In this document: piece by piece, positions 2,672-30,429 of the stretch
Layout: each line of letters begins with the position of its first letter
Numbering within the stretch: position 1 is the stretch's first letter
Source: a virus
Taxonomy: Duplodnaviria; Caudoviricetes
Virus record (IMG/VR): IMGVR_UViG_3300025652_008830
Span: 1-30,429 of that record
Direction: 5' to 3' (one strand)
DNA: 30,429 nt
Position numbers and translations under genes: made by a program
Notes under the pieces: generated by a model
What the model was told of the DNA's origin: nothing
The model's database searches: none
Seen by the model: only the letters and a program-made list of their open reading frames with translations

Positions 2672-2672
2672 T

Positions 2673-2701
2673 TTGATTTATACAAATATTATTAGTATAA
2701 T
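2673..2701 (+). promoter_or_regulatory. Sigma70-type promoter
   Basis: TTGATT(2673-2678)-N17-TATAAT(2696-2701) in the intergenic gap before the glycosyltransferase. Confidence 0.65.
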
Positions 2702-2738
2702 AAGCTTGAAACTTCTGAGAAAATTAATTTAAAAAACA

Positions 2739-3906: not shown

Positions 3907-3910
3907 TATT

Positions 3911-5605: not shown

Positions 5606-5646
5606 GTCATTAATTACACTAATTAGTAAAAAATATGAAAAAACTA

Positions 5647-5675
5647 TTGACAACGATATTAAGCTATGATATTGT
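5647..5675 (+). promoter_or_regulatory. Sigma70-type promoter of the replication operon
   Basis: TTGACA(5647-5652)-N17-TATTGT(5670-5675) with an extended TGn; ATG at 5682 follows after 6 nt. Confidence 0.7.
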
Positions 5676-5681
5676 TATCAC

Positions 5682-6131
5682 ATGCCTAGAGGTCAAAAGA
5701 AATGCAAATCATGCGGAGAGTTTGTTGGGTCGAGAGTCTCAACCTGTTCTTGCGGTCATGTATTCCCAAAGGCAAAGCCGAAGAAAAAAGCCAAACCCTT
5801 CTTTAAAGAAAGGAAGGAGTTTATTAAGCGGATGCTTAAGGGAGGCAAGTCAGAAAACTTGCAGTTGGATATGATGGTTGTAACCAAGATATTCGAATCT
5901 TTTGACAATAATTTGGATTTCTTAAACAATATCTCTCCTCCCTTTAAGCTTGATAAAAGTATAAAGTTCTTTTTAACAGGGGATGGCAAAAAATATCTCA
6001 ACAAGAAAAAATTGGAGTTTGATTACATTCCTCCAGAGATTGAGAAAATAGTTGACTGCAACGAGAAGATAGGTAATGATATATCTACAAACAAAATAAA
6101 AACATTAAGACAATTTTTAAACAATGAGTAA
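5682..6131 (+). CDS. Hypothetical protein with N-terminal zinc ribbon
   Basis: CKSC...CSCGHVF followed by a Lys-rich segment; overlaps the recA start. Confidence 0.75.
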   Translation: MPRGQKKCKSCGEFVGSRVSTCSCGHVFPKAKPKKKAKPFFKERKEFIKRMLKGGKSENLQLDMMVVTKIFESFDNNLDFLNNISPPFKLDKSIKFFLTGDGKKYLNKKKLEFDYIPPEIEKIVDCNEKIGNDISTNKIKTLRQFLNNE

Positions 6132-7233
6132 AATAAAAACATCAGAGTTTGCTAAGGAATACCTTAAAGCAAACAAGGACTTGCATTATAACCTAACTGA
6201 AGACGTAGATGAATACGTTGTATCTAGCGGTTCAATGAATTTAGATTCATACTTGGGCGGAGGACTATCTTCTGGAGTGCATCGATTCGTTGGGGCTAAC
6301 GAAGGAGGCAAAACCAATGAAGCTTTACAAGTAATGTACAACATGCTAAATACGGTTGAAAACTCAAAAGCTTTATTTGTAAAAGCAGAGGGGAGACTTT
6401 CTAAAGATGTTAGAAAGCGTTCTGGAATAACCTTTGTTACCGATCCAGATGAATGGGTTGTAGGAACATGTTTCGTTTTTGAAAGTAATGTTTTTGATGC
6501 TGTTTTTGATTTTCTTAGAGGCTTGCTAAAGAACAACCCAGACAAAGAAAGGCTTTGCGTTGTAATAGATAGTATGGATGGTCTCTTGCCCCAATCAGAA
6601 CTTGAAAAAAGAACTAGTGACGCGGCAAAAGTTGCGGCTGGAGCTTTAATGACTTCGGATTTCCTCAAGAGAGTTAGTCTTGGTATGTGTAAATTCGGAC
6701 ATATGCTGATTATGATTTCTCAGATCAGAGCAAAGGTAGATATTAATCCTTATGCAAAAGGAGACCCAAACAATCAGACAAATGCAAGTGGTGGAAACGC
6801 TGCTTTACATTATCCAGATTGGATCTTAGAATTCCAAAAACAATTCAAGTCAGATAAAATCTTAGAAAAGCCAACCGAACAAATCGGGCCTAATAATAAA
6901 ATATATGGACATATGGCTAAAGTTCTTATTTGTAAGTCTACTAATGAATCCACTGGCCAGCTTGTAAAATACCCAATTAAACACGGCAGGATTAATGGAA
7001 AATCTATTTGGGTCGAACGTGAAATTGTAGAGATGCTTCTCATGTGGGACTTTATGGGTAAAAAGGGTTCTTGGTTTGACTTTGATGAAGAGGTAATATC
7101 TTATTTGGCAGACAAAGAGGTTGAATCAAAAACTAAATTTCAGGGCATGGCGTCTATATATGAATATCTGGAAAAAAACCCTAAAGTTTCAGAGGTTCTA
7201 GAACAGTTTGTTAAAGAAAAAATTCTTACCTAA
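6124..7233 (+). CDS. recA: RecA/UvsX-like recombinase
   Basis: SSGSMNLDSYLGGGL, Walker A GANEGGKT, Walker B VVIDS, ISQIR, SGGNAALHY, KKGSWF. Confidence 0.9.
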   Translation: MSKIKTSEFAKEYLKANKDLHYNLTEDVDEYVVSSGSMNLDSYLGGGLSSGVHRFVGANEGGKTNEALQVMYNMLNTVENSKALFVKAEGRLSKDVRKRSGITFVTDPDEWVVGTCFVFESNVFDAVFDFLRGLLKNNPDKERLCVVIDSMDGLLPQSELEKRTSDAAKVAAGALMTSDFLKRVSLGMCKFGHMLIMISQIRAKVDINPYAKGDPNNQTNASGGNAALHYPDWILEFQKQFKSDKILEKPTEQIGPNNKIYGHMAKVLICKSTNESTGQLVKYPIKHGRINGKSIWVEREIVEMLLMWDFMGKKGSWFDFDEEVISYLADKEVESKTKFQGMASIYEYLEKNPKVSEVLEQFVKEKILT

Positions 7234-11796: not shown

Positions 11797-11799
11797 TAT
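11771..11799 (+). promoter_or_regulatory. Sigma70-type promoter embedded in the 3' end of the nuclease gene
   Basis: TTGACA(11771-11776)-N17-TAATAT(11794-11799); ATG at 11807 follows after 7 nt. Confidence 0.7.
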
Positions 11800-11806
11800 T
11801 GCATTT

Positions 11807-12526
11807 ATGATACCGCTATTTAAGAGCCAGTTTAGCATTGGTAAATCTATTTTAACTATTGATGATATTGTTGATATTGCGAAAAACAAATCACTAGAAG
11901 AGGTTGTCTGCGTGGAAGATTCTTTTTTTGGTTTTAGATCTTTAAAAAGCAAGCTCTCAGAAGCAGGTATCAAGTTTATTTTCGGGATAAGGTTGTCAGT
12001 TGTTCAGGATTCTAACGACTCTGATTTGCGTCCTAGTAAACTTGTATTTTTTGCTAAAAATAATGATGGGGTAAAAGCCTTAAGGTCTCTTTATACCTCG
12101 GCTCACACAAGCGATAGTGGTTCGCTTTCTCTTGCTGATTATAAAAAATCATTTTTCAAGGACATAAAAGTAGCTGTACCCTTCTACGATTCTTATATTT
12201 ATAATAATATTTTTATGTTTGGGTTGTCAGAGCTGTGCTTAAGTGGTATCGAACACACTTACTTTGTTGAGGAAAATAACCATCCTTTTGATTTTCAGAT
12301 AAAGAGGGTGATGGATTCTTTGGGTGTCGAGACAACTCAATGTAAGAGTATATACTATAAAAACAAAGAAGACTTTCATGCCTTTCAGATGCACAAAGCT
12401 ATCTGCAACAGGAGAATGGGCAGAAGCCCTACTTTTTCAAGCCCCAATCTGAACGATTTCGCATCTGATGAATTTTCTTTCGAGTCTTATCTTGAAAAAA
12501 ATCAAAAAGAAGTTATTAGTGTATAA
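11807..12526 (+). CDS. Stand-alone, degenerate PHP domain of DNA polymerase III alpha (split DnaE N-part)
   Basis: True start is likely MIPLFKSQFSIGKS (the track start at 11549 overlaps the upstream gene). It aligns by eye to the DnaE PHP pattern (HxHSxYS..DG, AxTDH, GIKxIxGxE, LxxLAKNxxG) as KSQFSIGKS, VCVEDS, GIKFIFGIR, LVFFAKNNDG, with the metal ligands lost. Confidence 0.75.
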   Translation: MIPLFKSQFSIGKSILTIDDIVDIAKNKSLEEVVCVEDSFFGFRSLKSKLSEAGIKFIFGIRLSVVQDSNDSDLRPSKLVFFAKNNDGVKALRSLYTSAHTSDSGSLSLADYKKSFFKDIKVAVPFYDSYIYNNIFMFGLSELCLSGIEHTYFVEENNHPFDFQIKRVMDSLGVETTQCKSIYYKNKEDFHAFQMHKAICNRRMGRSPTFSSPNLNDFASDEFSFESYLEKNQKEVISV

Positions 12527-12532
12527 ATATAC

Positions 12533-12760
12533 ATGGAATACGACTTTTCAGATCAAGCCGCAAGTTTTTTGAAATCTTTTGCTAAAAGGTTTTCGCACTC
12601 AAAATACGATGATCAAGATAAAAAAGATTATGATCACGAAATGACTATCTCAGAGCAATCTATGCAAGAGCTCCATGAAAACGGGGTTACGTATATAACC
12701 GAATCTGGAGATGGAGAAACAATGGTGATCAAAGTTAGTTATTCTGGTAATAAAACTTGA
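12533..12760 (+). CDS. Hypothetical acidic protein (75 aa)
   Basis: ORF preceded by GTGTATAAATATAC (12519-12532). Confidence 0.65.
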   Translation: MEYDFSDQAASFLKSFAKRFSHSKYDDQDKKDYDHEMTISEQSMQELHENGVTYITESGDGETMVIKVSYSGNKT

Positions 12761-12776
12761 TCCATGCATTAAAAGA

Positions 12777-12804
12777 TTGACTAGTTTACATTTTGTGTTA
12801 CTCT
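12777..12804 (+). promoter_or_regulatory. Possible sigma70-type promoter
   Basis: TTGACT(12777-12782)-N16-TACTCT(12799-12804) with TGn; weaker match. Confidence 0.45.
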
Positions 12805-12816
12805 CTAATCAGAGTA

Positions 12817-13431
12817 ATGCTTAAATACGATCAAAAATACATAGTCTTTGATACAGAGACAGAAGGATTAAACCTTCATTCATCTAAGCCTTGGCAAATT
12901 GCTTGGATTGTTTGTCAGGGTTACAAGATTATAGAGACTCATAATAGGTTTTTAGATTTTGATGACCTTGAAATTCCAGATATAGTAAGAAAACTTACAG
13001 GATTCTCTTGGGACACTTATAACAAAAAGAAAGAAGATCCAGAAACTGTTCTTGCCGACTTTGAGGAATACTTGTATGACCCTCAATACAAAATAATAGG
13101 TCAAAATTTATTAGGCTTTGATGTCTATATGATAGCCGAACTCCAGAGAATGTTTGGAAGGAAAAGAGACTTTACTTATTTTGATAGAATTTATGATACC
13201 CGCGCATTGGGTAAGGCTCACAGAGAAGGGTTAGAAAAACCAAAAGAAAACTTTCTTAGCTGGCAGTACAAAATAATAAACGACAGAAGTCTAAAGTCAA
13301 AGGTTTCTCAAATTCAATTATTAAAGTATTTTGGTATTGACTTTGAAGAGGAAAAGTTGCATGATGCTCTTTATGATATTGAGATGTGTTACCAGATTTT
13401 TTGCGAACTTAAAAAAGCAATGAACTTATGA
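12817..13431 (+). CDS. dnaQ: DEDDh 3'-5' exonuclease (DnaQ/epsilon-like)
   Basis: ExoI VFDTETEGL, ExoII GQNLLGFDV, YDT, ExoIII HDALYDI; start ATG 12817. Confidence 0.85.
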   Translation: MLKYDQKYIVFDTETEGLNLHSSKPWQIAWIVCQGYKIIETHNRFLDFDDLEIPDIVRKLTGFSWDTYNKKKEDPETVLADFEEYLYDPQYKIIGQNLLGFDVYMIAELQRMFGRKRDFTYFDRIYDTRALGKAHREGLEKPKENFLSWQYKIINDRSLKSKVSQIQLLKYFGIDFEEEKLHDALYDIEMCYQIFCELKKAMNL

Positions 13432-15992
13432 TATTTGAAGACTTTACAGATTACGATGATTGCGAGCCAGCGGGAGTAGAACTTCCAAAGACTCCTGTTA
13501 ACGAGGACACCTTAATAGAGCTTGGTTTAAATTCAAATAGCTCAAACAAGGAAATAATGTACGAGTTAGCTCGCAAGGGTTTGAGGGATAAGGGCATAAC
13601 AAGCTATAAGAACAAAGAGGTTTATTTCGACAGGGTTCAAAAAGAGTTAACAATATTGGACGAGCTTGGGTTCACTGATTATATCTTACTTAATTGGGAC
13701 ATACTTAATTACTGTCACGATGAAAACATACCTACAGGGGCAGGCAGGGGTTCTGCAGCGGGCTCTCTGGTGCTTTACCTACTTGGAGTTACAAATATAG
13801 ACCCTATCCCTCACGACTTGTTTTTTGAGAGGTTTGTTTCTAAGAGCAGGGCTAAAAAAGTCACAGATAAAAACGGCAAAGAGTTCCTCGTCGGTAGCTT
13901 GCTTCCAGATGTTGACTCAGACATCTCTTACGAGAAACGACAGCAGGTTATTAAATACATCGAGGATGTGCATAAAGGGAAAACAGCTAAAATATTGACA
14001 TTCAATACGTTTAGTTCAAAGCTTTGCATTAGGGAAGCTACTAAATATTTTGATGGAGCTAAAGAGGAAGAGGCTGGTAGGGTTAGTGATATGATCCCAA
14101 AATTACACGGCAAAGTTTTTTCTCTTAATAAAGCAGAAGAAGAAAGTGAAAAATTTACAGCTTGGGCGGATAAACACAAAAAAACATTTCAAAACGCTTT
14201 AAAGGTTGAGGGTCTTACAAAGAACGTTGGTGTTCATCCATCTGGTATTGCTATTTGTTCTACAGATATTGGCGATGTAGTTCCACTCCAAAAAACAAAA
14301 GATGGTGATCTAGTTACTGCATATGACATGAACGATGTTGCAGACTTAATGGTAAAGTTTGATATACTCGGACTCAGAACCCTTACAATCGCTCACAAAA
14401 CATGTCAAAAAATAGGTTTAGATCTAGAGTTAGTAAACGAGGAAGACCCGTTTATTTATGAAACACTGCAGAACTTCAATCACCCAGTTGGTTTGTTTCA
14501 AATTTCTGCTGACACAAACTTTAGAGTATGCCAAGAAGTTAAACCCAATAATATTAATGAACTTTCTGACGTTGTAGCGCTTGCAAGGCCAGGGGCCTTG
14601 CAGTTCCTAGACGAGTATATTAATCAAAAACATGCACCAACAGATCTTAATTTGCAAAAAGACTTGGATGAAATTTTGTCTTGGTCTAATAATGTTATTC
14701 TTTACCAAGAACAATTAATGCAGATTGCCAATAAGGTTTTTGGTCTTACTTTGGACGAAGCGGAAACCTTGCGCAGAATAGTAGGAAAGAAGAAAGCAGA
14801 CGAAATGCAAGAGTGGAAGGAAAAGATTTATAACGGTGGTTTAGAAAATCATTTAGACGAAAGAATATGTGACTTTTATTGGGGTGCATTAGAAGCTTCT
14901 GCAGATTATTCTTTTAACAAGTCTCACAGTTTCGCTTATGCTAACTTAGCAGCCAAGACTGTTTACTTAAAATACAAACACCCGAAGGAATTCTTTTTGT
15001 CTGTCCTTGAGTCTTCTGAGTTCGAGCCAGAACCATTAAAAACAGTCAACAGTGTAAACGAAGAGCTTTGTGATTTTGGTATTGTGCTACTTCCTCCAAG
15101 TCTTTTTAAATCAGATATAAACTTCAAGATTGAAGGTGCAAATATCAGATACGGTTTAAATAGCATCAAGGGGATTTCTCTTAAAGCTCTTGAGAGTTTA
15201 GTAGACTTTAGAGGTGTTGAGTTTAATAATAAGTATGAGGTTTTTGGCGCAGCAAAAGAGTGCGGTATTAACATATCTGTCTTAGCTGCCTTGATTCAGG
15301 CTGGGACTATGGATGACAAGACTGATAATAGAAGTCGTTTAGTTCTTGAGGCTCAAGCATTCAACTTATTGACAGAGAGAGAGAAGAGGAACTTCGTTAA
15401 AATAGGAGAAAGATTTGGATATGACATATTAAACTCTATAGCAGATGTTGTTGACACAAAAGTTTTAGGAGATGATAACAAGCCTATAATTTCAGAGAAA
15501 AGGTTCGAAACATTCAAAAGAAACTTTCTTAAGTATAGGGAGATTTATAACAAGAATAAAAGCCACGAAAAGTTCACAAACTGGTGGTATGAAAACAGCC
15601 TTCTTGGTTATAGCTATTCATATTCTCTTAATGAGTGCTTTGAAGCAGATTACGGAAGATTAGAAACGCTTAAAGAAGTTTCTCTATTAAGCTCTGCAGA
15701 TAAATTTAAAGCCGTGTGTCAGGTCAAAGATTTCTTTACAAGAATATCCACTAATGGCAATAAATATATGATGATAGAGGCGTCTGACAATACCGCTTCA
15801 ACAAAGTTGTTGTTAATGGACAATCAAAGAGAAGAAAAACTTTCCAATTTCCTTGCTAAAAGCAAAATTAAAAAAGAGGATATAATAATTATAAATGCCA
15901 CAAAAAGCGATGGAGGAACTAGTTTCGTAGATACGATAAAAGTAGTAGATACAAAAATATTAATGAAATCAAGAGACATAAAGAAAAAATGA
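13428..15992 (+). CDS. dnaE: DNA polymerase III alpha core (DnaE without PHP)
   Basis: GAGRGSAAGSLVLYLLGVTNIDP, FFERF, PDVDSD, HPSG, KFDILGL, YQEQLM, YSFNKSH, IRYGLNSIKGI and a probable C-terminal OB fold. Confidence 0.95.
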   Translation: MIFEDFTDYDDCEPAGVELPKTPVNEDTLIELGLNSNSSNKEIMYELARKGLRDKGITSYKNKEVYFDRVQKELTILDELGFTDYILLNWDILNYCHDENIPTGAGRGSAAGSLVLYLLGVTNIDPIPHDLFFERFVSKSRAKKVTDKNGKEFLVGSLLPDVDSDISYEKRQQVIKYIEDVHKGKTAKILTFNTFSSKLCIREATKYFDGAKEEEAGRVSDMIPKLHGKVFSLNKAEEESEKFTAWADKHKKTFQNALKVEGLTKNVGVHPSGIAICSTDIGDVVPLQKTKDGDLVTAYDMNDVADLMVKFDILGLRTLTIAHKTCQKIGLDLELVNEEDPFIYETLQNFNHPVGLFQISADTNFRVCQEVKPNNINELSDVVALARPGALQFLDEYINQKHAPTDLNLQKDLDEILSWSNNVILYQEQLMQIANKVFGLTLDEAETLRRIVGKKKADEMQEWKEKIYNGGLENHLDERICDFYWGALEASADYSFNKSHSFAYANLAAKTVYLKYKHPKEFFLSVLESSEFEPEPLKTVNSVNEELCDFGIVLLPPSLFKSDINFKIEGANIRYGLNSIKGISLKALESLVDFRGVEFNNKYEVFGAAKECGINISVLAALIQAGTMDDKTDNRSRLVLEAQAFNLLTEREKRNFVKIGERFGYDILNSIADVVDTKVLGDDNKPIISEKRFETFKRNFLKYREIYNKNKSHEKFTNWWYENSLLGYSYSYSLNECFEADYGRLETLKEVSLLSSADKFKAVCQVKDFFTRISTNGNKYMMIEASDNTASTKLLLMDNQREEKLSNFLAKSKIKKEDIIIINATKSDGGTSFVDTIKVVDTKILMKSRDIKKK

Positions 15993-19914: not shown

Positions 19915-20382
19915 ATGTTAAAAAATTCTTTCCCCACTTGGCCTAAAAAAAACCCACTCAGCTTGGGCAATGAAACCTGTAGGTGTTCTGAGTTGTTCCC
20001 GAGTCAATTGTACTTAAATCATTCTAACGGCCTTTTTGTCGGAGGTAATACTCGCCCTATCCCTATAAGTGATAATAGGGCCGCAGGTTTCGATTGCGAT
20101 TATCAACTCTTCTTTGAGTTTGATCCACCATCCGAGGACCCATTCCTTTTCAATTATGCTGAACATGTGTTTATTGTTTTCGACAACCCCTCTAACTGGG
20201 ACGCGGCATTCAATGAAGGTGATCCTAATGACACCCGACAATGGATTATTAATTTCAATAACTCTTTTCCTATTAATAGTCCAATGTATGCATTCCCCGC
20301 CAACACAAACCCTTGCGACCCACAGGGTGATTATTTTAGCGGGCAAGATTCTGCGCAACTTTCTTTTGTACCATTCGATTAA
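19915..20382 (+). CDS. Hypothetical Asn/Pro/Phe-rich protein (155 aa)
   Basis: Longest co-oriented ORF in the gap, with an A-rich leader. Confidence 0.6.
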   Translation: MLKNSFPTWPKKNPLSLGNETCRCSELFPSQLYLNHSNGLFVGGNTRPIPISDNRAAGFDCDYQLFFEFDPPSEDPFLFNYAEHVFIVFDNPSNWDAAFNEGDPNDTRQWIINFNNSFPINSPMYAFPANTNPCDPQGDYFSGQDSAQLSFVPFD

Positions 20383-21419: not shown

Positions 21420-22421
<1,002 letters not shown>

Positions 22422-22525
22422 AACTTGTGTAAAGAAAAACAAAAGCATAAAGAAAAATCTTCCACAAAACTTAGCGAATTTACAGGCTTTTATTATTTAA
22501 GAAGTATTAAAATATAAAAAATACT

Positions 22526-23920
22526 ATGGCACAACAAAAATTTACCGTAACCCCAGGAACTCACCAAGACGTACGTAATATTATCAACAGCAATTCTGAT
22601 GACGCGCAAGCTAGATTATCGGCTCTTGAAACAATCGGAGTCTCTGGAGAATCTGCATATGAGGTAGCTGTTAATAATGGATTTGCTGGTAGCGAAGCTG
22701 CTTGGTTGGAATCGCTCATTGGCGCAGATGGACAAGATGGGGTTGCAGGCTCAACTGGCCCTACAGGCCTTACTGGCCCTGCAGGACAAGACGGGACATC
22801 TGTAGTATTAAAGGGTACTGTTGCTGATTTCGCCAGCTTGCCAGCTGGCGCTGCAGAAGGGGATCTTTACATTACTTTAGATACGGGGGACGGTTGGGTT
22901 AGTAATGGAACAGAGAGTTGGGGCAATGTCGGTGCAATTCAAGGACCCCAAGGCCCGCAAGGTGAAAAAGGAGATATTGGACTCACTGGGGATGATGGAT
23001 TAACTGGTCCTGTCGGGGAACAAGGTATACAAGGGGAAAAGGGAGATGTAGGAGAAACTGGAGAGAATGGTAATACTGTTCTTAGTGGAGACTTTATTCC
23101 GACAAACGAGGGCGTCGATGGAGATTTTTTTATTAGAACAGATACTTTGGAACTGTATGGTCCAAAAACTGCTGTTGGATGGGGAGAAGAACCGACGTCT
23201 TTGTTGGGTTCGACAGGACTAGATGGCTCTGATGGTAATACAATTTTAAGCGGTTTTAGCCCACCATTAAATTCAGAGGGAGTAGATGGAGACTTTTTCA
23301 TTAATACAGAAACCTCTGATTTTTACGGACCGAAATCTAATGGTACTTGGAGCGCTGCTATCTCTTTGCTAGGCAAGGATGGAGCGGGAGTCCCTACTGG
23401 TGGAACGACCACTCAAATTATAAGTAAAATAGACGGCGTTGATTTCAATACTACATGGATTGATAACACCGCCAATAACACTGCTTACGATAATGTGGAT
23501 TCTGGGCTAACGGCTATAAACGTTAAAGACGCAATTGATGAGATTGCTATAGTTAAAGTTAAATTTTGGTACTTAAACAAAATGGGGGATGAAGTTTCCG
23601 CTTTTTCTGGAGACGGTGAAAAGACCGCTTGGGTAGCTCCAGCTGCAGGAGAAATTCATTCTGTTCACAGTGGTTCTTCTACAGCAGCCCAAGGAGGAAA
23701 TATTGTCGTCGATGTTAAAAAAGAAGGGGTAAGTATACTTGGTACGCTTGGCGTAATAGCTTCTGGTTCAAATAGCACAAGAACTGGGACACCACATGTA
23801 CTTACAGCTAACCCAACTAGTTTTGCTGCTGGAGATAGAATTTCATTTGAAATTAGCAGCTTTACCGCGACTGGAGGAGCAAAAGGGCTTCATACAGACA
23901 TTCTAATATCTTGGGTTTAA
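22526..23920 (+). CDS. Collagen-like tail fibre 1
   Basis: Gly-X-Y runs, GESAYEVAVNNGFAGSEAAWLESL motif, two GNTxLSG...EGVDGDFFI.T.T...YGPK...W nodes and a C-terminal beta domain ending AKGLHTDILISWV. Confidence 0.85.
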   Translation: MAQQKFTVTPGTHQDVRNIINSNSDDAQARLSALETIGVSGESAYEVAVNNGFAGSEAAWLESLIGADGQDGVAGSTGPTGLTGPAGQDGTSVVLKGTVADFASLPAGAAEGDLYITLDTGDGWVSNGTESWGNVGAIQGPQGPQGEKGDIGLTGDDGLTGPVGEQGIQGEKGDVGETGENGNTVLSGDFIPTNEGVDGDFFIRTDTLELYGPKTAVGWGEEPTSLLGSTGLDGSDGNTILSGFSPPLNSEGVDGDFFINTETSDFYGPKSNGTWSAAISLLGKDGAGVPTGGTTTQIISKIDGVDFNTTWIDNTANNTAYDNVDSGLTAINVKDAIDEIAIVKVKFWYLNKMGDEVSAFSGDGEKTAWVAPAAGEIHSVHSGSSTAAQGGNIVVDVKKEGVSILGTLGVIASGSNSTRTGTPHVLTANPTSFAAGDRISFEISSFTATGGAKGLHTDILISWV

Positions 23921-23935
23921 AAACTTACTTTTTAA

Positions 23936-26900
23936 ATGATTGTTAATCCATACATTTTCAGTTCCAATTTAGTCCCCCTGACTAATACATTAATATATGA
24001 TGAGTTTGGCGTAAAGATTTTTGATATCTTTGGAGAAATCCCCACTTTTGCAAATAATAGCGATATATATCAGGTTGAGATTGGCACATCATGCACAAGT
24101 ATTCCTAGTAATGGTTTTTCTAATTGCATTGGGTTAAGTGGCTCGTTTGTTATACCAAGTAGTGTTACGAGTATTGGGAGTAATGCTTTTTATTACAACA
24201 CCCCTATCAGCAATATGTTTGTGGACACCCCTTCTAGCTTTTGGCCGCCGAATGTTGGCGGTGGTGGTTTTAATTATGCTGCAGCATTTTTCCTTAATTT
24301 TAGTCCAATTAAAGTTCATGTTTCGCCAGATTATTTTGGGGTAGGTTCTAACTATGATGCTACTTGGGGTTCCAATCAAGGGTTAGCGGCTGGATCCACA
24401 ATTATTAACTGGGATTGGTATCCATACCCCGTTCCTAATGAGGAAGGCCCAGTTGAAAGCACTCTTTATGATATTAGTGATACTGCTTTAGTTGGTCTTT
24501 TCGGACCAATCCCAGACAACTGGAACGAGAATAACTCCCCATATGACGCTACTCGTTTAGAGATCGGTAAATCATGCACAAGTATTGGGGGTTATGCTTT
24601 TAATGGTTGTACTAGCTTAACTGGTTTATTAACTATCCCAGATAGTGTTCTAGCGATTGGGAGTAATGCTTTCAGTTATTGCTCTAACTTAACTGGTGCA
24701 TTGACTATTCCGAATAGCGTTGCAACTATTGGGAGTGGTGCTTTTCAGGCTTGCACTGGTTTAGATGGTATACTAACCATTCCGAATAGCGTTAATAGTA
24801 TTGAGAGTGCTGCTTTTAGCCTTATCTCAATAAACACATTATCTGTGTTAAATGAATTAACAACCATTTCATCTTTAGCATTTTCATCTAATACATCTTT
24901 AACAGATGCTTTTTTAGCTCCTTCTTTTTCTTTGGTAGATGGCAGTACATTCACATCATGCAACAACCTAACTAAGGTTTATGCTAAAGACGCCGCTTCT
25001 AATGGATACACAATTGGAGTGGGCCAGAGTGTTGGAGGAGAAACAGTTGAAGTACTTAACTGGGATTGGTATCCATACCCCGTTCCTAATGAGGAAGGCC
25101 CAGTTGAAAGCACTCTTTATGATATTAGTGATGCTGCCGTAGTTGGTCTTTTCGGACCAATCCCAGACAACTGGAACGATAATAATTCGCCGTATAGCAC
25201 TGCCACTCGTTTAGAGATCGGTAAATCATGTACGAGCATTGGAATAAAAGCTTTTTGGGTATGTGACAACCTTACTGGCAGCTTAACCATTCCAGATAGC
25301 GTTTTAATTATTGACGACAACGCCTTCACAAGTTGCTTTAACCTTGACGGCACATTAACCATTGAAAATGGAGTTCAAAGCATAGGATTAGGTGCATTTA
25401 GCAACGATCCTTTTACTGGTTCTCTGGTTCTGCCAGACAGTTTGGAAACTCTTGGTAGTGGCGCTTTTTACAAAGCCAAATTTACAGGTGGATCATTAAC
25501 TATTCCTGACAGCGTTACTAGCATCGGGGAAAGATGTTTTAAACGTACTGAGTTTACTAGCTTATTGAGTTTCCCAAACAACATTTCTTTTGAAATCATT
25601 CCAGACGAATGCTTTAGTACTTGCTCTGCATTAAGTGGCTCCTTGGTTATTCCAGATAGTGTTACGACTATTGGGGATGGTGCTTTTTTCCAATGCTCTG
25701 GCTTAAGTTCGTTAACTATTGGAAATAGCGTTGCAACTATTGGGAGTCAAGCTTTTTATTATTGCACTGGCTTTAATGGTTCATTAACCATTCCAAATAG
25801 CGTTAGGACTATTGAAACAGAGGCTTTCCGTGGTTGTGATTTTACTGGTTCATTGACTATTCAAGATGGTGTTACAACTATTGGGAGTCGAGCTTTTGGT
25901 TATTGCGATGGTTTTACTGGTTCATTAACTATTCCAGATAGTGTTGATACTATTGGGAGTTATGCTTTCACAAGCACCAGTGCTTTAGATGGTTATTTAG
26001 TAATTCCAAATAGTGTTGCGAGCATTGGGACTTATGCTTTTTATGACAATTCTTTTGAGAGTATATATATAGATTGTGCGGCTTCGTCTTGGACAGGGAC
26101 AAATGCTTTATCCATCTTTCAAGCTTCTCCGCCAGTGATTTACGTTAATGCTCCTGACCCAGATGCTGCTGGATACAATGCAGCATGGAAAACAGCGCAA
26201 GGATTACAAGTGGAAGCTATAATTTTAACTTGGCAAAACTACCCAGCTCCAACGCCTAATCCAATTGATCCTGCTCTAACTTACCTTTATGACTCTGGTG
26301 GTTCTTTTTTGACTCTTCTTCAAGATGATATACCCAATAACTGGAACGATGGCAATACACCATACAATGCTGATAGAGTTGAGATCGGCACATCATGCAC
26401 AAGTATTGGTAATTATGCTTTTTCAAATTCTAATAATATGACTGCAGGCTTAGTTATACCGTCTAGTGTTTTGACTATTGGTGATCGTGCTTTCAATCAA
26501 TGCAATAACTTAACTGGTTCATTAACAATTCCAGATAGTGTTGATACTATTGGGAGTTATGCTTTTAATTATTGCACTGGCTTTACTGGTTCATTAACCA
26601 TTGAAAATGGAGTCCAAAACATTAGCAGTTATGCTTTTAATTATTGCAATGGCTTCACTGGTTCATTAACCATTCCAGATAGTGTTACGACTATTGGGAG
26701 TAATGCTTTTTATATGGGGGTCTTTTTCGGCTCACCTTCTTGGTCTGGAGCATTAACTATTGGTGATGGGATAGAAACTCTTGGTAGTAGGGCTTTTCAG
26801 TATTGCTCTGGCTTTACTTCATTAACTATTGGGAATGTTCTTACAAGCATTGGGGATTTCGCTTTTAAAAATTGTAGTGACATTATTCATATATATATCA

Positions 26901-27091
26901 ATTGCGGTTCTGATAAATGGACAGGATCAAACGCTTTACAAGTAACGACCGCACTTACAAAGATATATATTAATGCTCCTGACCCAGATGCTGCTGGATA
27001 CAATGCAGCATGGAAAACAGCGCAAGGAGTTGCTGTCGGAGTAGTAATTGAGACATGGGACAATTTCCCAGCTTCAACACCAAATCCATAA
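23936..27091 (+). CDS. BspA/TpLRR (LRR_5)-type adhesin with four tandem capped LRR modules
   Basis: About 26 repeats of CxxLTGSLTIPDSVTTIGxxAFxx in four modules, each ending WxxYP/FPxxxPN; located in the tail cluster. Confidence 0.9.
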   Translation: MIVNPYIFSSNLVPLTNTLIYDEFGVKIFDIFGEIPTFANNSDIYQVEIGTSCTSIPSNGFSNCIGLSGSFVIPSSVTSIGSNAFYYNTPISNMFVDTPSSFWPPNVGGGGFNYAAAFFLNFSPIKVHVSPDYFGVGSNYDATWGSNQGLAAGSTIINWDWYPYPVPNEEGPVESTLYDISDTALVGLFGPIPDNWNENNSPYDATRLEIGKSCTSIGGYAFNGCTSLTGLLTIPDSVLAIGSNAFSYCSNLTGALTIPNSVATIGSGAFQACTGLDGILTIPNSVNSIESAAFSLISINTLSVLNELTTISSLAFSSNTSLTDAFLAPSFSLVDGSTFTSCNNLTKVYAKDAASNGYTIGVGQSVGGETVEVLNWDWYPYPVPNEEGPVESTLYDISDAAVVGLFGPIPDNWNDNNSPYSTATRLEIGKSCTSIGIKAFWVCDNLTGSLTIPDSVLIIDDNAFTSCFNLDGTLTIENGVQSIGLGAFSNDPFTGSLVLPDSLETLGSGAFYKAKFTGGSLTIPDSVTSIGERCFKRTEFTSLLSFPNNISFEIIPDECFSTCSALSGSLVIPDSVTTIGDGAFFQCSGLSSLTIGNSVATIGSQAFYYCTGFNGSLTIPNSVRTIETEAFRGCDFTGSLTIQDGVTTIGSRAFGYCDGFTGSLTIPDSVDTIGSYAFTSTSALDGYLVIPNSVASIGTYAFYDNSFESIYIDCAASSWTGTNALSIFQASPPVIYVNAPDPDAAGYNAAWKTAQGLQVEAIILTWQNYPAPTPNPIDPALTYLYDSGGSFLTLLQDDIPNNWNDGNTPYNADRVEIGTSCTSIGNYAFSNSNNMTAGLVIPSSVLTIGDRAFNQCNNLTGSLTIPDSVDTIGSYAFNYCTGFTGSLTIENGVQNISSYAFNYCNGFTGSLTIPDSVTTIGSNAFYMGVFFGSPSWSGALTIGDGIETLGSRAFQYCSGFTSLTIGNVLTSIGDFAFKNCSDIIHIYINCGSDKWTGSNALQVTTALTKIYINAPDPDAAGYNAAWKTAQGVAVGVVIETWDNFPASTPNP
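24405..25242 (+). repeat. Direct repeat of about 185 bp (24405-24588 / 25056-25242) spanning a module junction
   Basis: Exact 77-bp block (24405-24481 = 25056-25132) and exact 40-bp block (24489-24528 = 25140-25179), offset 651. Confidence 0.9.
26145..27028 (+). repeat. Exact 59-bp direct repeat (26145-26203 / 26970-27028) in two C-caps
   Basis: TTAATGCTCCTGACCCAGATGCTGCTGGATACAATGCAGCATGGAAAACAGCGCAAGGA occurs twice. Confidence 0.9.
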
Positions 27092-27187
27092 AACACAAAC
27101 AATTATTAAATACCGATACCGAAATTCACAACACAATTAAAAATTCTTGTGTATATACTGAATAGGAAGAACTTTTAAAAAACCAAA

Positions 27188-28405
27188 ATGCCTCAAGAAA
27201 TTTTCATACCAACAGAAGGAGTATCCACACACCTAGAAGCAAGAAACGTTATTAACAGTAACGCGAATGATGCAGAGGTGCGGATAGCTAATTTAGAGTC
27301 TAGATTAGATTTAGAACCTCACAATATTAATTCTTCATATGGAGAAGGAGAAACGTTTTATTTTGGTGGTTCCTCTTATAGAGTTGATGACGGGGCTACA
27401 TTGAATGTAGGTGAAAGTCCAACAACTAATCCAGAAAAAGTAACTTCGCTTGATAATGTTGGACTTGACGGAAAAACCGTTCTTAACGGCATCGTTGTTC
27501 CGACAACTGAAGGTGTCGACGGAGACTTTTACATTAAGACAGACACCTCTGACATTTATGGACCAAAGACTGGAGGCGCTTGGGGTGCTGCTACGTCTTT
27601 GATTGGCGCTGATGGTGCTGATGGTGCTGATGGTGTAGATGGTGCTGATGGCAAAACAGTTCTTAGTGATGCTGTAGTGCCGACAACAGAGGGCGTTGAT
27701 GGAGATTTTTTCATTAGAACTGACACATCAGAAATTTACGGTCCTAAAACTGGTGGAGCATGGGGCGCTCCTACATCCTTGATTGGAGCCGATGGAGCCG
27801 ATGGAGCCGATGGAGCCGATGGAGCCGATGGAGCCGATGGAGCTGCTGGTGCCGATGGAGCTGCTGGGCTTGACGGCAAAACAGTCCTTAATGGAGTCGT
27901 TGCTCCGACAACCGAAGGTGTTGATGGCGATTTCTATATAGATACAGTAACTTCTAACCTTTACGGACCTAAAGATAGTGGTGTATGGGGGGCAGCTACT
28001 TCACTTATAGGTCCTACTGGACCTACTGGACCCGCTGGCGATGGAGGTGGTGGCACTACACTCTCAGGCACTACAGCAAACGATACTCAAACAGAAATCT
28101 TTATAGATGGTACATCTCCGAATAGAGTAGATGTCGCTACTGGTTCAACAATTACATTCTCTGCTTTAGTTGCTGCAAGATCTGCCACAGAAAGTGCTGG
28201 CTATAAGATCGAGGGTGTCATTAAGAATGATGCTGGAACAGCCGAAATAGTTGGTGTTGTAGTTAAAACAATTTTTGCCGAAGAAGATATAGCATGGGAC
28301 GCTACCGTAACTGCGGCTAATAACGCAATTACATTCCTTGTAACTGGCGATAGTGTTGATTCTGTATCTTGGGAAGTAACCCTTAATAAGATCGAAGTAA
28401 CCTAA
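27188..28405 (+). CDS. Collagen-like tail fibre 2
   Basis: N-terminus paralogous to fibre 1 (THLEARNVINSNANDAEVRIANLE), three DGKTVL...EGVDGDF...YGPK..W nodes, (GAD)n runs and a different C-terminal beta domain. Confidence 0.85.
   Translation: MPQEIFIPTEGVSTHLEARNVINSNANDAEVRIANLESRLDLEPHNINSSYGEGETFYFGGSSYRVDDGATLNVGESPTTNPEKVTSLDNVGLDGKTVLNGIVVPTTEGVDGDFYIKTDTSDIYGPKTGGAWGAATSLIGADGADGADGVDGADGKTVLSDAVVPTTEGVDGDFFIRTDTSEIYGPKTGGAWGAPTSLIGADGADGADGADGADGADGAAGADGAAGLDGKTVLNGVVAPTTEGVDGDFYIDTVTSNLYGPKDSGVWGAATSLIGPTGPTGPAGDGGGGTTLSGTTANDTQTEIFIDGTSPNRVDVATGSTITFSALVAARSATESAGYKIEGVIKNDAGTAEIVGVVVKTIFAEEDIAWDATVTAANNAITFLVTGDSVDSVSWEVTLNKIEVT
27785..27838 (+). repeat. Perfect 9-bp tandem repeat (GGAGCCGAT)6 encoding (Gly-Ala-Asp)6
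   Basis: Read directly from the sequence. Confidence 0.95.
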
Positions 28406-28408
28406 AAA

Positions 28409-29074
28409 ATGAGCCAATTATTCAGAGGAGATATCACTAACAGTGTTGCAGAGCTTACCTTGCTTGACGAGGAAGTTATTGGCGGTGGTGCTGGCACATT
28501 GTCTTATGGTCTTGGTGGAACTAATAATGGTGAAATTCTTACTGTAAGTAAGGGAGATTTTCCAGATTATAGTGCTGGGTCTAATCCATATTACAATGAT
28601 ACAAATTTTAGAGGATTAGTAATTGGCACAAGTTGCACAACTATTGGAAGTTATGCTTTTTATTATTGCAATGGCTTAACTGGTTCATTAGTTATTCCAG
28701 ATAGTGTTACAACTATTGGGGATTATGCTTTTAATGCTTGCATTAACTTAACTGGTTCATTAACTATTGGAAATAGTGTTACGAGTATTGGGGCTTATGC
28801 TTTTGCTGATACTTCTTTTGGAGGAGCAATAGTTATACCAGATAGCGTTACAAGTATTGGGAGTTATGCGTTTTATTATTGCAATATTTTCTCTCCACTC
28901 TATGTTAACACACCAGCATCATCATGGGTTGGGTCAAACGCTTTAACAGGGGCTAGTCTCACTACTATATATGTTAACGGAGTAACAGCATTAGGTTACA
29001 CAGCTGGAGCGCAAACATTCCAAGGGAAATCATTAACGATAGCCGAATGGACAAACTACCCTAACATACCATAA
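28409..29074 (+). CDS. Single-module BspA-type LRR protein (4 repeats)
   Basis: GLVIGTSCTTIGSYAF plus 24-aa repeats; ends WTNYPNIP. Confidence 0.9.
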   Translation: MSQLFRGDITNSVAELTLLDEEVIGGGAGTLSYGLGGTNNGEILTVSKGDFPDYSAGSNPYYNDTNFRGLVIGTSCTTIGSYAFYYCNGLTGSLVIPDSVTTIGDYAFNACINLTGSLTIGNSVTSIGAYAFADTSFGGAIVIPDSVTSIGSYAFYYCNIFSPLYVNTPASSWVGSNALTGASLTTIYVNGVTALGYTAGAQTFQGKSLTIAEWTNYPNIP

Positions 29075-29094
29075 ATTTTAACTAAAACAAAAAA

Positions 29095-29661
29095 ATGAAA
29101 TACGCAATCACAGGTCCTCAAGGACGAATCCGCAGAATAGTAGATGTAGAGCCGACAGAAGCTCCATACTATAGCGAAATTTCAGATGCAGATGCAGCTA
29201 CTGTTGATGCCTCTGATGAAATATACTTTATTGTTAACAGCACTCTGCTGACACAAGATGAATTTAGAGAGCAAAAACAAACAGAAAGATTCAATCAACA
29301 ACTCACAGACTTTGGCGCAGATATTGATGGTGCAAAGAAACATTCAAGAGATCATTACGCCGATAAAAGATACAATGTAGAAGTCGGAGGTATTAATGTT
29401 GGTGGTTTGCCAGTAAGAACTGACAGGCTCACAGTATCAAGGATTTATCAAGCAAATGCATTGGCAATTCAAGACCCCGCATTTACTACTGAGTGGAAGA
29501 TTGGTAATGGATCATTCATTACTGTTGATGCTACACTGATTGGTTCTTTGACTGCTGCAATCACAAGCCACATTCAAACTTCTTTCACTAGAGAGAAGAC
29601 AATCAACGAAGAAATCACTGCCGCAACTACTATAGCAGAGTTACAGGCAATCACATGGTAA
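29095..29661 (+). CDS. DUF4376-domain tail fibre assembly/chaperone-like protein
   Basis: RYNVEVGGINVGG..VRTD...EWKIGNGSFITVD...HIQTSFTRE...AATTIAELQAITW. Confidence 0.75.
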   Translation: MKYAITGPQGRIRRIVDVEPTEAPYYSEISDADAATVDASDEIYFIVNSTLLTQDEFREQKQTERFNQQLTDFGADIDGAKKHSRDHYADKRYNVEVGGINVGGLPVRTDRLTVSRIYQANALAIQDPAFTTEWKIGNGSFITVDATLIGSLTAAITSHIQTSFTREKTINEEITAATTIAELQAITW

Positions 29662-29667
29662 TTTAAT

Positions 29668-30417
29668 ATGAGTAAGTTTTTCAAAGGCGATGTTACAAAT
29701 GGCGTAGTTGAGTTTAACTTGCTCGATCCTGCGGTGGGTGCTGGTGGCACTACTGCTACTGTTATTACAAAGAATACTGGAGCGAATGTAGTTGAGCAGA
29801 TTGTTGGATCTATATCCAGCTATGCATATGGTCTTGGAAGTAATGGAGGGTATGATGTTAAGGGATTAGTAATTGGCACATCTTGCACAAGTATTGGGAC
29901 TCATGCTTTTGCTTATTGCACTAGCTTAACTGGTCCATTAGTGATTCCAGATAGTGTTACGACTATTGGGAGTCAAGCTTTTTATAATTGCATTGACTTT
30001 AACGGTTCATTAACTATTGGAAATAGTGTTACAACTATTGGGAGTTATTCTTTTGGTTATTGCTCTAGCTTAACTGGTCCATTAGTGATTCCAGATAGTG
30101 TTACAAGCATTGGGACTTATGCTTTTATTCTTTGCGCTAATATAACTGGTCCATTAGTCATTCCGAATAGTGTTACGACTATTGGGAGTTATGCTTTTGG
30201 TGAATGCAGTGGCTTAACCACAGCATATCTAGCTACACCATATGCTAATATACCAACTGGAGGTTTTGGGTCTGGTGCATTTTTCTACTCTGGATTAACC
30301 ACGGTCTATGCTAATGATGCAGTAGCCAATGGCTGGACATTAGGCGCTGGTCAAACTGTTGGCGGTAAATCTGGAGTAACCGTAATAGACTGGACAAACT
30401 ACCCTAACATACCATAA
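29668..30417 (+). CDS. Single-module BspA-type LRR protein (5 repeats), paralog of 28409..29074
   Basis: Same N-terminal peptide type, GLVIGTSC cap and 24-aa repeats; the last 27 bp are identical to those of the paralog. Confidence 0.9.
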   Translation: MSKFFKGDVTNGVVEFNLLDPAVGAGGTTATVITKNTGANVVEQIVGSISSYAYGLGSNGGYDVKGLVIGTSCTSIGTHAFAYCTSLTGPLVIPDSVTTIGSQAFYNCIDFNGSLTIGNSVTTIGSYSFGYCSSLTGPLVIPDSVTSIGTYAFILCANITGPLVIPNSVTTIGSYAFGECSGLTTAYLATPYANIPTGGFGSGAFFYSGLTTVYANDAVANGWTLGAGQTVGGKSGVTVIDWTNYPNIP

Positions 30418-30429
30418 TGAGCAAAACAT
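30417..30429 (+). CDS. Start of the next gene (MSKT...), truncated by the window edge
   Basis: TAATG stop/start overlap. Confidence 0.5.

What the first reader, a model, noticed from the sequence alone, without database searches (positions are those of the whole stretch)
23936..30417. Combinatorial LRR adhesin repertoire: N-cap x (LRR)n x C-cap shuffling in a phage tail locus
Seen: six LRR modules in three genes (about 23987-24442, 24443-25093, 25094-26263, 26264-27091, 28409-29074, 29668-30417) carry 2, 5-6, 12, 7, 4 and 5 repeats, mostly of 24 aa/72 bp. There are two N-cap types: A (TxxYD...IP...EIGxSC) and B (YGLG...GLVIGTSC). There are two C-cap types: X (LTxAxLA...VYAxDAxxNGxTxGxGQxVGG) and Y (YV/Ixxxxxx W xGxNAL...IYV/IN). 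All four combinations occur: A-X (module 2), A-Y (modules 3 and 4, more loosely 1), B-Y (28409) and B-X (29668). Every module ends in a WxxYP/FP motif. Inference: crossovers inside the near-identical LRR cores reassort caps and change repeat number, generating receptor-binding variants, perhaps using the RecA and nuclease encoded in this window. The cap-variable LRR-cap layout is analogous to lamprey VLRs. I do not recall this described for phage tail tips, but cannot check the literature.
Basis: partly seen in the sequence, partly recalled or inferred. Interest (0 to 1): 0.85.

Follow-up and report, generated by a model that had tools for sequence, protein, structure and literature searches.

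The report
Shuffled LRR tail adhesins shared among phages
This uncultured aquatic phage carries six leucine-rich-repeat modules among its tail-fibre-like genes, and related phages hold the same parts in other combinations, likely through ordinary DNA recombination; the proteins likely help the virus grip its host, a known phage strategy on a protein scaffold little described in phages.

Summary
The six modules, repeat counts and terminal motif are real, and all are BspA/TpLRR (LRR_5). The 2x2 cap scheme is only partly right. 'N-cap B' is not one class (17% identity), 'Y' is mixed, and the repeats are not near-identical (median 62%, maximum 85%).

The locus has two parts. The four-module ORF is stable: a 93%-identical relative keeps its caps and counts, and a 39%-identical ortholog keeps its cap order. 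The two small genes lie in a fibre–LRR–DUF4376–LRR(–sulfotransferase) cassette that is strongly mosaic across unrelated aquatic phages. Of 248 pairs with C-caps at least 90% alike, 191 have N-caps at most 50% alike. P0013 joins this window's front to another phage's rear within repeats 1–2. Shared-tract ends are not enriched in the repeat cores. Fronts stay with their gene slot; rears move.

Relatives fuse such LRRs to fibre N-termini and minor tail proteins, so virion display is likely but unproven. I found no sign of VLR-like or DGR machinery. This scan found the same kind of system on other DNA. My paper searches found no description of it in phages.

The parts
21420..22421 (+). Tube-fold or minor tail-like protein. 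Distant homolog of the domain to which relatives fuse LRR arrays.
   Evidence: PHROG tail E 2e-4, Pfam Phage_tube_2 E 0.03; hhalign to the N-domain of P0293/P0290 E 0.0012, score 31 against a maximum of 20 in 40 shuffles
22526..23920 (+). Collagen-containing fibre-like protein 1, directly upstream of the four-module ORF
   Evidence: Pfam Collagen E 1e-11; PHROG tail fibre E 5e-26
23936..27091 (+). Four-module LRR_5 protein. M1 23987-24442 (2 repeats), M2 24443-25093 (5), M3 25094-26263 (12), M4 26264-27091 (7). Architecture is stable in relatives.
   Evidence: relative L014 has the same caps and counts with 117 aa differences; ortholog P0197 is 39% identical with the same cap order
24405..24481 (+). 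77-bp exact junction repeat, copy 1 (end of M1 C-cap, linker, start of M2 N-cap). Evolves in concert with copy 2.
   Evidence: 3 sites where both copies agree within a genome and differ between the window and L014
25056..25132 (+). 77-bp exact junction repeat, copy 2 (M2/M3 junction)
26145..26203 (+). 59-bp exact repeat in the M3 C-cap; the second copy is at 26970-27028 in the M4 C-cap
27188..28405 (+). Collagen-like fibre protein 2. Its distal part is replaced in the close relative. Its last 117 aa (28052-28402) form a conserved tip domain.
   Evidence: PHROG tail hits; similarity to L014 breaks at 27651; tip domain found in 48 proteins with varied N-termini
28409..29074 (+). Small LRR gene, slot 1 (4 repeats). 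The N-terminal ~18-aa hairpin is a predicted docking segment. 28654-28735 is an 82-bp exact tract shared with another phage's slot-3 gene.
   Evidence: Model pLDDT 87, hairpin at low confidence; tract; P0013 shares aa 1-109
29095..29661 (+). DUF4376 protein, likely a fibre-maturation chaperone
   Evidence: Pfam DUF4376 E 6e-14, PHROG tail fibre E 1e-21; relatives of the tested chaperone V22 gp27 carry DUF4376 (PMC7289586, passages)
29668..30417 (+). Small LRR gene, slot 2 (5 repeats). It holds a 40-bp direct repeat at 29921-29960 and 30065-30104; loss of the 144 bp between them gives exactly protein P0002.
   Evidence: the middle repeats are covered by perfect-match contigs in runs X1-X3
30417..30429 (+). 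Start of a further ORF whose first four residues match the slot-3 LRR genes of relatives; cut by the window end
   Evidence: Sequence; relatives; an alternative continuation in run X1
6124..7233 (+). RecA/UvsX-like recombinase. A candidate for the exchanges; its role is untested.
   Evidence: Pfam RecA E 1e-12, PHROG UvsX-like E 9e-32

Best explanation
The three genes encode BspA/TpLRR solenoids that likely serve as virion-displayed binding heads on the phage's collagen-like fibres, and the two small ones belong to a fibre–LRR–DUF4376–LRR(s)–sulfotransferase cassette whose fronts, repeat blocks and rear caps occur in many combinations across unrelated aquatic phages, likely through ordinary homologous recombination during co-infection plus selection on a few exposed residues per repeat. 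Shown: (1) the fold class; (2) mosaic alleles, including exact joins inside repeats 1-2; (3) slot-specific fronts with freely moving rear caps; (4) variable positions 10, 11, 14, 15 and 17, rich in Tyr, Ser, Gly, Asn and Asp; (5) conversion between module junctions within a genome; (6) a stable four-module ORF. Inferred: (a) each small protein docks on the conserved fibre tip through its N-terminal hairpin, as T2-type gp38 docks on its fibre; (b) it binds a host surface ligand through the variable side of the solenoid; (c) phage or host RecA-type enzymes carry out the exchanges. The four-module ORF is best read as an old, fixed concatemer of such heads that drifts by substitution and local conversion.
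For: Mosaicism. Of 248 pairs with C-cap at least 90% identical, 191 have N-cap at most 50% identical, among 119 modules. With a strict cut, 179 of 188 such pairs have non-identical C-caps. The N and C trees conflict at supported nodes. P0013 is window-28409 aa 1-109 plus a 192-aa suffix identical in P0001 and L023_11284, overlapping at aa 82-109; the window shares an 82-bp exact tract with L023_11284 there. Within slots, N-versus-C rank correlation is 0.01, 0.08 and 0.19 (12, 10, 9 genes), against 0.62 for the two ends of DUF4376. The close relative L014 is 92-96% identical up to 27651 and carries a different cassette beyond.

Virion link. The flanking genes are fibre-like or tail-like. A fibre N-terminal module is fused to LRR heads in 7 of 167 proteins, all above the best of 3340 shuffles. 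LRR arrays are fused to a minor-tail-like domain downstream of a tape-measure gene in L115, and in the same gene order in G001 and G002. The tip domain and the G-x-x-T-N anchor co-occur in 10 of 10 cassettes, against 0 of 8 others.

Selection. Window versus L014 gives 28 non-synonymous to 1 synonymous changed codons at four variable positions, against 20 to 24 elsewhere (Fisher p 3e-6). dN 0.19 versus dS 0.09 at those codons.
Against: There are no virion proteomics, no host and no ligand. No cultured phage carries a close copy (13 weak records, none covering 80%). My idea that the anchor mimics the tip's first strand was not supported (0 of 167 above shuffles). N and C caps are not fully independent (Mantel r 0.25 overall and 0.18 in the anchor family, p 0.002). 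Only 6 of 76 pairs with near-identical N-caps have unlike C-caps, and the protein set is biased to X caps because the query had one. The sulfotransferase ends are also decoupled (rho 0.28, not significant), so recombination is cassette-wide and not LRR-specific. P0013, P0002, P0001 and P0026 each rest on one contig and could be assembly chimeras. The cassettes are related to each other, so the 10-of-10 count is not ten independent events.
Confidence: 0.65

Rival explanations
1. One reading: the six modules form an in-genome combinatorial repertoire. Crossovers inside the repeat cores, driven by the phage's own RecA and nuclease, reassort caps among all six modules quickly enough to act as a variant generator.
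For: Junction copies evolve in concert within a genome. P0002 is an exact pop-out at a 40-bp direct repeat. Exact tracts of 27-38 bp link different modules and genes. 3 of 54 long shared tracts join two genes of the same genome. RecA is present.
Against: The four-module ORF keeps caps and counts in L014 and cap order in P0197, where modules 2 and 3 also keep about 5 and 12 repeats (counted by eye). P0197's cluster shows no change in LRR number; its one indel is a 50-aa non-LRR unit. 51 of 54 tracts are between genomes. Tract ends are not enriched in cores. Repeats are at most 85% alike.
Confidence: 0.12
2. The LRR proteins are not fibre-tip receptor-binding proteins. They are non-essential accessory binders (loose decoration for sticking to particles or polysaccharide), or proteins acting in or on the infected cell, and they ride in the fibre region.
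For: A genome carries several paralogs, 1 to 4 per cassette, more than one receptor-binding tip needs. The conserved partner is a sulfotransferase (Pfam Sulfotransfer_3 E 5e-16), which is not a structural protein. The window's own anchors match no tail family.
Against: Fusions to fibre N-termini and minor-tail-like domains in relatives. A DUF4376 chaperone gene inside the cassette. Anchor type tracks the fibre-tip type.
Confidence: 0.15
3. A diversity-generating retroelement somewhere in the gene pool mutates the variable codons, and recombination then spreads the products.
For: 81% of 656 variable codons end in T and most are N-N-T, as A-to-N mutation of AAT would give. 31 of 37 changes at codon positions 1-2 involve A.
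Against: No reverse transcriptase in the window or in 0 of 4 records searched, which are 36-74% complete. No all-AAY template pattern in IMG/VR. No non-coding LRR copy in 22400-30429. Scaffold third bases are just as fixed. About 26 A-involving changes are expected from base composition (my hand estimate). dN/dS is only about 2. CAA, CAG and GAA codons occur.
Confidence: 0.05
4. The mosaics are artefacts of metagenome assembly through shared k-mers.
For: The cassette breaks into short contigs with many branches in the runs that hold it. The alternative core that P0013 carries occurs in 3 of 4 of those runs. Several key proteins rest on one contig.
Against: 179 of 188 discordant pairs have non-identical C-caps. 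Separately assembled records repeat the same cassette with 0, 0, 4 and 1 differences over 2.1-3.5 kb. L014 and L036 agree at 99.8% and independently show the window's module order.
Confidence: 0.03

Closest known systems
BspA/TpLRR-class LRR proteins (Pfam LRR_5, PF13306; PDB 4gt6, 4fs7, 6mlx, 4h09, PcpA 4cp6)
   Same: Same repeat family by profile, by sequence to solved chains (4gt6 E 2e-33, TpLRR 6mlx E 6e-16) and by fold ranking (the top 11 Foldseek ranks are bacterial LRR structures of this kind, best E 1.1e-3).
   Different: Phage-encoded, with fibre-type or hairpin N-termini instead of cell anchors. The repeat is mostly 24 aa. The caps are family-specific and end in W-x-x-Y/F-P or a D-L motif.
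Tandem LRR surface-protein locus of Flavobacterium psychrophilum (PMC10392669, passages read)
   Same: Tandem LRR genes with 2-14 repeats, hypervariable positions on one side, extensive recombination. The paper already makes the comparison with lamprey VLRs.
   Different: Bacterial and T9SS-exported, up to 19 copies plus gene fragments. Here there are 1-4 small genes per phage cassette, no fragments seen, slot-specific fronts, and exchange between phage genomes.
T2-type gp38 adhesins of the T4 superfamily (PMC3157838, abstract read)
   Same: A small separate protein next to the fibre gene, with an N-terminal attachment domain, a conserved scaffold with hypervariable segments, and interchangeable specificity parts.
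   Different: Unrelated scaffold (glycine-rich motifs versus an LRR solenoid). One adhesin gene there, several here. Docking and receptor binding are shown for gp38 and only inferred here.
Flexible host-recognition modules of phage pan-genomes (PMC7468147, abstract and passages)
   Same: Near-identical core genomes with interchanged variants of tail-fibre and receptor-binding genes; recombination as the main source of diversity.
   Different: That paper has no mention of leucine-rich proteins (0 hits for 'leucine'). Here the exchange reaches below the gene, down to repeats and caps, and crosses phage families.
Lamprey and hagfish variable lymphocyte receptors (PMC13337447, passages)
   Same: Cap, variable number of LRRs, cap; diversity from reassorted repeats.
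   Different: VLRs are assembled somatically by CDA-mediated gene conversion of flanking cassettes into an incomplete germline gene. None of this is seen here; every gene is complete. The LRR class differs. The variable residues lie off the main beta-sheet in the model, whereas VLRs bind mainly with the concave sheet (recalled).

Membership tests
BspA/TpLRR (PF13306) | LRR_5 profile match above the curated cut-off | tested here: met
   408, 87.5 and 147 bits against a cut-off of 27.7
BspA/TpLRR (PF13306) | Repeat motif I-G-x-x-A-F-x-x-C/N with a parallel beta-sheet solenoid (motif recalled) | tested here: met
   I100, G89, A93, F99, C93 percent in 305 unique repeats; model pLDDT 87 with one main strand per repeat
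BspA/TpLRR (PF13306) | Cell-surface export or anchor, as in the cellular members | tested here: inconclusive
   No signal or membrane segment apparent by eye; no predictor was run
VLR-type programmed LRR assembly | Incomplete germline gene with flanking donor LRR cassettes | tested here: not met
   All LRR self-matches in 22400-30429 lie inside complete ORFs. The genome beyond the window end was not seen.
VLR-type programmed LRR assembly | Dedicated deaminase or recombinase | tested here: not met
   None among 38 window ORFs; only a general RecA/UvsX. The genome is partial.
VLR-type programmed LRR assembly | Diversity generated within one clone | not testable with these tools
   Only assembled contigs were available, no raw or long reads
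Diversity-generating retroelement | Reverse transcriptase gene | tested here: not met
   Window; 0 of 4 related records, 36-74% complete; a fifth was not held
Diversity-generating retroelement | Non-coding template repeat with A at the variable sites | tested here: not met
   0 matches to one all-AAY pattern in IMG/VR; AAY-AAY heads in fetched loci all lie in coding repeats. A single pattern is a narrow test.
Diversity-generating retroelement | Adenine-specific variation | tested here: inconclusive
   31 of 37 changes involve A, against about 26 expected from composition (hand estimate); 81% N-N-T codons
gp38-like separate fibre-tip adhesin | Gene directly downstream of a fibre gene, with chaperone nearby | tested here: met
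   DUF4376 link from PMC7289586
gp38-like separate fibre-tip adhesin | N-terminal domain binds the fibre tip | tested here: inconclusive
   Co-occurrence 10 of 10 versus 0 of 8; low-confidence N-terminal hairpin; no direct evidence
gp38-like separate fibre-tip adhesin | Present in the virion and determines host range | not testable with these tools
   Uncultured phage, host unknown
gp38-like separate fibre-tip adhesin | Glycine-rich-motif scaffold of true gp38 | tested here: not met
   The scaffold is LRR_5; it may work like gp38 but is not a member
Invertase-driven shufflon | Inverted recombination sites and a site-specific recombinase | tested here: not met
   22 short inverted pairs, none recurring at module borders; no invertase among window ORFs

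The most novel reading that the evidence does not exclude
Unrelated aquatic phages (T4-like, lambda-tail-like and small ones) draw on one community-wide library of antibody-like LRR binders. Several different LRR heads clip onto one conserved fibre tip through a slot-specific N-terminal hairpin, so each virion carries a multi-specific tip. DNA-level conservation of the repeat scaffold keeps heads, repeats and caps exchangeable across phage families, and the co-travelling sulfotransferase tunes the binding chemistry.
Probability: 0.25. Interest if true: 0.78.

Novelty: new variant of a known kind. Interest (0 to 1): 0.5.

Why it matters
Recombination of receptor-binding parts is textbook phage biology, and shuffled LRR arrays are known in bacteria. 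What my searches did not find in print is LRR_5 solenoids as exchangeable tail-associated heads shared among unrelated phage families. If the virion role holds, this adds a scaffold class to phage host recognition and marks phages that probably share hosts. It also offers a natural library of small (190-470 aa) binders with Tyr/Ser/Gly/Asn/Asp-rich variable sites that can be assayed directly. It does not point to a new programmed diversity mechanism.

Tried and rejected
No whole genome is held for the window.

Complex prediction of the fibre-tip trimer with the 28409 protein gave no verdict (score 0.02, mark 0.32). This is neither support nor evidence against binding.

The idea that the LRR anchor mimics the tip's first strand: 0 of 167 above shuffles. 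Two other fibre N-terminal profiles also found 0 of 167. A pairwise BLAST of the L028 anchor against P0124 found nothing; only the profile did.

A search for relatives of module 1's cap among proteins of 578-1840 aa found none. The larger search was swamped by generic LRRs; 5 of its 150 hits passed my cap-motif filter, and I examined P0197, P0293, P0290 and P0169.

Host: a scan of species genomes gave one weak hit in a MAG (41% over 56 aa), not used. PMC4611503 (passages) lists Verrucomicrobia phages but does not bear on this locus. The host stays unknown.

The metagenome scan returned 79 loci. L035 appears to be the window itself and was excluded; L036 is the same strain as L014 (99.8%); the rest are distant collagen or fibre matches. 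So there is only one independent close relative.

Contigs of public runs cannot show pop-outs at 40-77 bp repeats or rare variants.

The fibre-tip fold was not obtained. It has no PDB sequence match and only unnamed viral clusters in the Atlas. The search against predicted viral structures was not obtained either.

Promoter and terminator scans were at or below shuffle level.

Nine paper searches were run. By their listings none describes LRR_5 proteins as phage tail adhesins. Subscription journals are mostly outside the library, and I opened no supplements.

Full report
Setting. The window is a fragment of a tailed-phage genome. It holds a RecA/UvsX-like gene, DnaB, primase, a PD-(D/E)XK nuclease, split DnaE, a Clp ATPase, a tube-like gene and two collagen-containing fibre-like genes. 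No whole genome is held. Four freshwater metagenome runs hold it, with perfect-match pieces up to 1.8 kb. Three IMG/VR records with related cassettes carry DnaE orthologs at 52-53% identity (3 of 5 searched). No cultured phage has a close LRR homolog. The host is unknown.

Observation. The six modules, their coordinates, the repeat counts (2, 5 plus a cap-like turn, 12, 7, 4, 5) and the terminal W-x-x-Y/F-P motif are as described. All are LRR_5. A model of the 28409 protein is a confident solenoid (pLDDT 87) with a low-confidence hairpin at residues 5-18, and its nearest solved folds are BspA/TpLRR proteins. The cap classes hold only in part. X is one clade that includes module 2 and the 29668 protein. 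'B' is not a class, because the two N-caps are 17% identical and the shared YGLG words are in different structural places. 'Y' is mixed: the 28409 rear is closer to X (44%) than to modules 3 and 4 (37%, 32%). The cores are not near-identical: 0 of 120 repeat pairs reach 90%, and the median is 62.5% (16 repeats of exactly 72 bp).

The four-module ORF is stable. One independent close relative (L014, L033 and L034 are the same contig; L036 is the same strain) is 92-96% identical over 16 kb. It has the same four modules, caps and repeat counts, with 117 residue differences and one single-residue gap. Module DNA identities are 86, 92, 92 and 99%. A distant ortholog, P0197 (39% over 981 aa), keeps the cap order with about 3, 5, 12 and 11 repeats (counted by eye) and adds Ig-like domains and a fifth module. 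Recombination inside the gene does occur. At three sites of the 77-bp junction repeat both copies agree within each genome and differ between genomes, and the exact repeat is 140 bp long in L014. That is gene conversion in the caps and linker, not in the cores.

The small genes lie in a mobile, mosaic cassette. Beyond position 27651 the same relative has a different fibre stalk and three different LRR genes around DUF4376, followed by a sulfotransferase. The same layout occurs in contigs with T4-like capsid genes and in contigs with lambda-like tail genes (labels recalled from motifs). Looser versions occur in other phages, including a complete 40.5-kb one. I pooled 44 locus genes, those of 120 homologs that passed a family filter, and the four window modules, giving 119 modules. 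Of 248 pairs with C-caps at least 90% identical, 191 have N-caps at most 50% identical. The reverse is rarer, 6 of 76, and a weak linkage remains (Mantel r 0.25). The set is biased to X caps because the query had one. With a strict cut, 179 of 188 discordant pairs have non-identical C-caps, which chimeric assembly of the same alleles cannot give, and separately assembled records repeat whole cassettes with 0-4 differences.

The window's own genes take part. P0013 has residues 1-109 of the 28409 protein and a 192-residue rear identical in P0001 and L023_11284, which have two other fronts; the overlap lies in repeats 1-2, where window and L023 share 82 exact bases. The 28409 rear recurs at 90-93% behind unrelated fronts. 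P0002 is the 29668 protein minus the two repeats between a 40-bp direct repeat, while contigs in runs X1-X3 support the five-repeat form. These single proteins each rest on one contig, so any one could be an assembly artefact.

Rules of the shuffle. In 34 genes from 12 distinct cassettes, fronts go with the gene slot and rear caps cross slots (I looked for this after reading earlier finding e1-6012590). Within slots 1-3, front and rear distances are uncorrelated (rho 0.01, 0.08, 0.19; the three slot-4 genes were left out), against 0.62 for the ends of DUF4376 and 0.28 for the sulfotransferase. Of 54 long shared tracts, 51 are between genomes. Of their 75 internal ends, 32 fall in fronts, 29 in cores and 14 in rears, against length shares of 24, 55 and 22%. 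Cores are therefore one site of exchange, not the preferred one. Synonymous codons of the scaffold are strongly fixed across phages (for example one Ser codon at 95% against 13% background), which fits homogenisation by exchange or recent expansion.

Variable surface. Positions 10, 11, 14, 15 and 17 of the repeat are the most variable and are rich in Tyr, Ser, Gly, Asn and Asp (305 unique repeats). In the model the main strands fall at positions 22-24, so the variable residues lie off the main sheet. Between window and L014 the codons at 10, 11, 14 and 15 show 28 non-synonymous to 1 synonymous change, against 20 to 24 at the other twelve positions scored (p 3e-6). dN/dS there is about 2, which fits moderate diversifying selection or conversion between repeats. 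The N-N-T codon bias (81% of 656) looks DGR-like. However, no reverse transcriptase was found in the window or in 4 partial related records, a template pattern had no match, and A-involving changes (31 of 37) are close to what composition predicts (about 26, hand estimate).

Are they on the virion? This is inferred. The flanking genes match tail-fibre families. Relatives of the tested tail-fibre chaperone V22 gp27 carry DUF4376 (PMC7289586, passages). A profile of fibre N-termini finds the same module at the start of 7 of 167 LRR proteins, above all 3340 shuffles. In L115 an LRR array is fused to a minor-tail-like domain that follows a tape-measure gene and two minor tail genes (the fused domain's own PHROG match is weak, E 0.25). 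G001 and G002 show the same fusion, and these proteins end in the same W-x-x-Y-P cap. P0293 carries capped modules of the window's types behind that domain. The conserved fibre tip and the G-x-x-T-N anchor occur together in 10 of 10 cassettes and in 0 of 8 others, which suggests docking; the cassettes are related, so this is not ten events. The window's RecA may act in the exchanges, but a complete phage with a one-LRR cassette lacks a homolog (2 of 5 records have one).

Comparison. It likely works like T2-type gp38 adhesins (PMC3157838, abstract) and fits the flexible host-recognition modules of phage pan-genomes (PMC7468147, passages). The scaffold and the reshuffling match the F. psychrophilum LRR array, for which the VLR comparison is already in print (PMC10392669, passages). 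It fails the VLR tests: no incomplete gene, donor cassettes or deaminase (definition from PMC13337447, passages). PMC2843621 (passages) mentions phages only for a different domain. Nine searches listed no paper on LRR_5 tail adhesins in phages; the library lacks most subscription journals. The scan noted the same kind of locus on at least four other windows; these notes are leads, not support.

Verdict. Real, but not as framed. It is a population-level mosaic cassette of likely fibre-tip LRR binders next to an old, fixed four-head concatemer. New variant of a known kind; interest 0.5.

Noticed in passing
L014:12349-13146 and equivalent genes in most cassette loci (beyond the window end): A Sulfotransfer_3 gene follows or adjoins the LRR genes in nearly all related cassettes, even in distant phages. 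Its substrate is unknown; the Tyr-rich LRR surface or a glycan are candidates.
   Followed up: partly
window 1886-4945: A cluster of sulfotransferase-like, glycosyltransferase (GT34-like), methyltransferase and GDP-mannose 4,6-dehydratase genes, suggesting glycan modification of the virion or the host surface.
   Followed up: no
L117, L118 (G001, G002), L115; proteins P0290, P0293: Giant LRR arrays (1361-3717 aa) fused behind a minor-tail-like domain in the tail operon, after the tape-measure gene.
   Followed up: partly
window 27188-27460; P0197 aa about 1215-1310: A ~50-aa unit from the N-terminal part of fibre 2 occurs as 2 or 3 tandem copies inside a C-cap of P0197 and P0319, with a faint CBM_5_12 match.
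   Followed up: partly
window 28052-28402: A 117-aa fibre-tip domain, 62-96% conserved in 44 of 48 homologs while the fibres' N-termini and stalks differ. It has no Pfam or PDB match.
   Followed up: partly
window 19915-20382 and 12533-12760 versus L033: Small variable spots: the 155-aa ORF at 19915 is absent at that place in the close relative, which has a different 159-aa ORF one gene downstream, and the 75-aa ORF at 12533 is missing.
   Followed up: no
window 4928-5653 (minus strand): A GIY-YIG homing endonuclease between the dehydratase and RecA regions.
   Followed up: no
window 11549-15992: DnaE is split into separate PHP, exonuclease and catalytic genes.
   Followed up: no
window 27604-27861: 9-bp collagen-like tandem repeats in fibre 2; their copy number differs between L014 and L036.
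   Followed up: no
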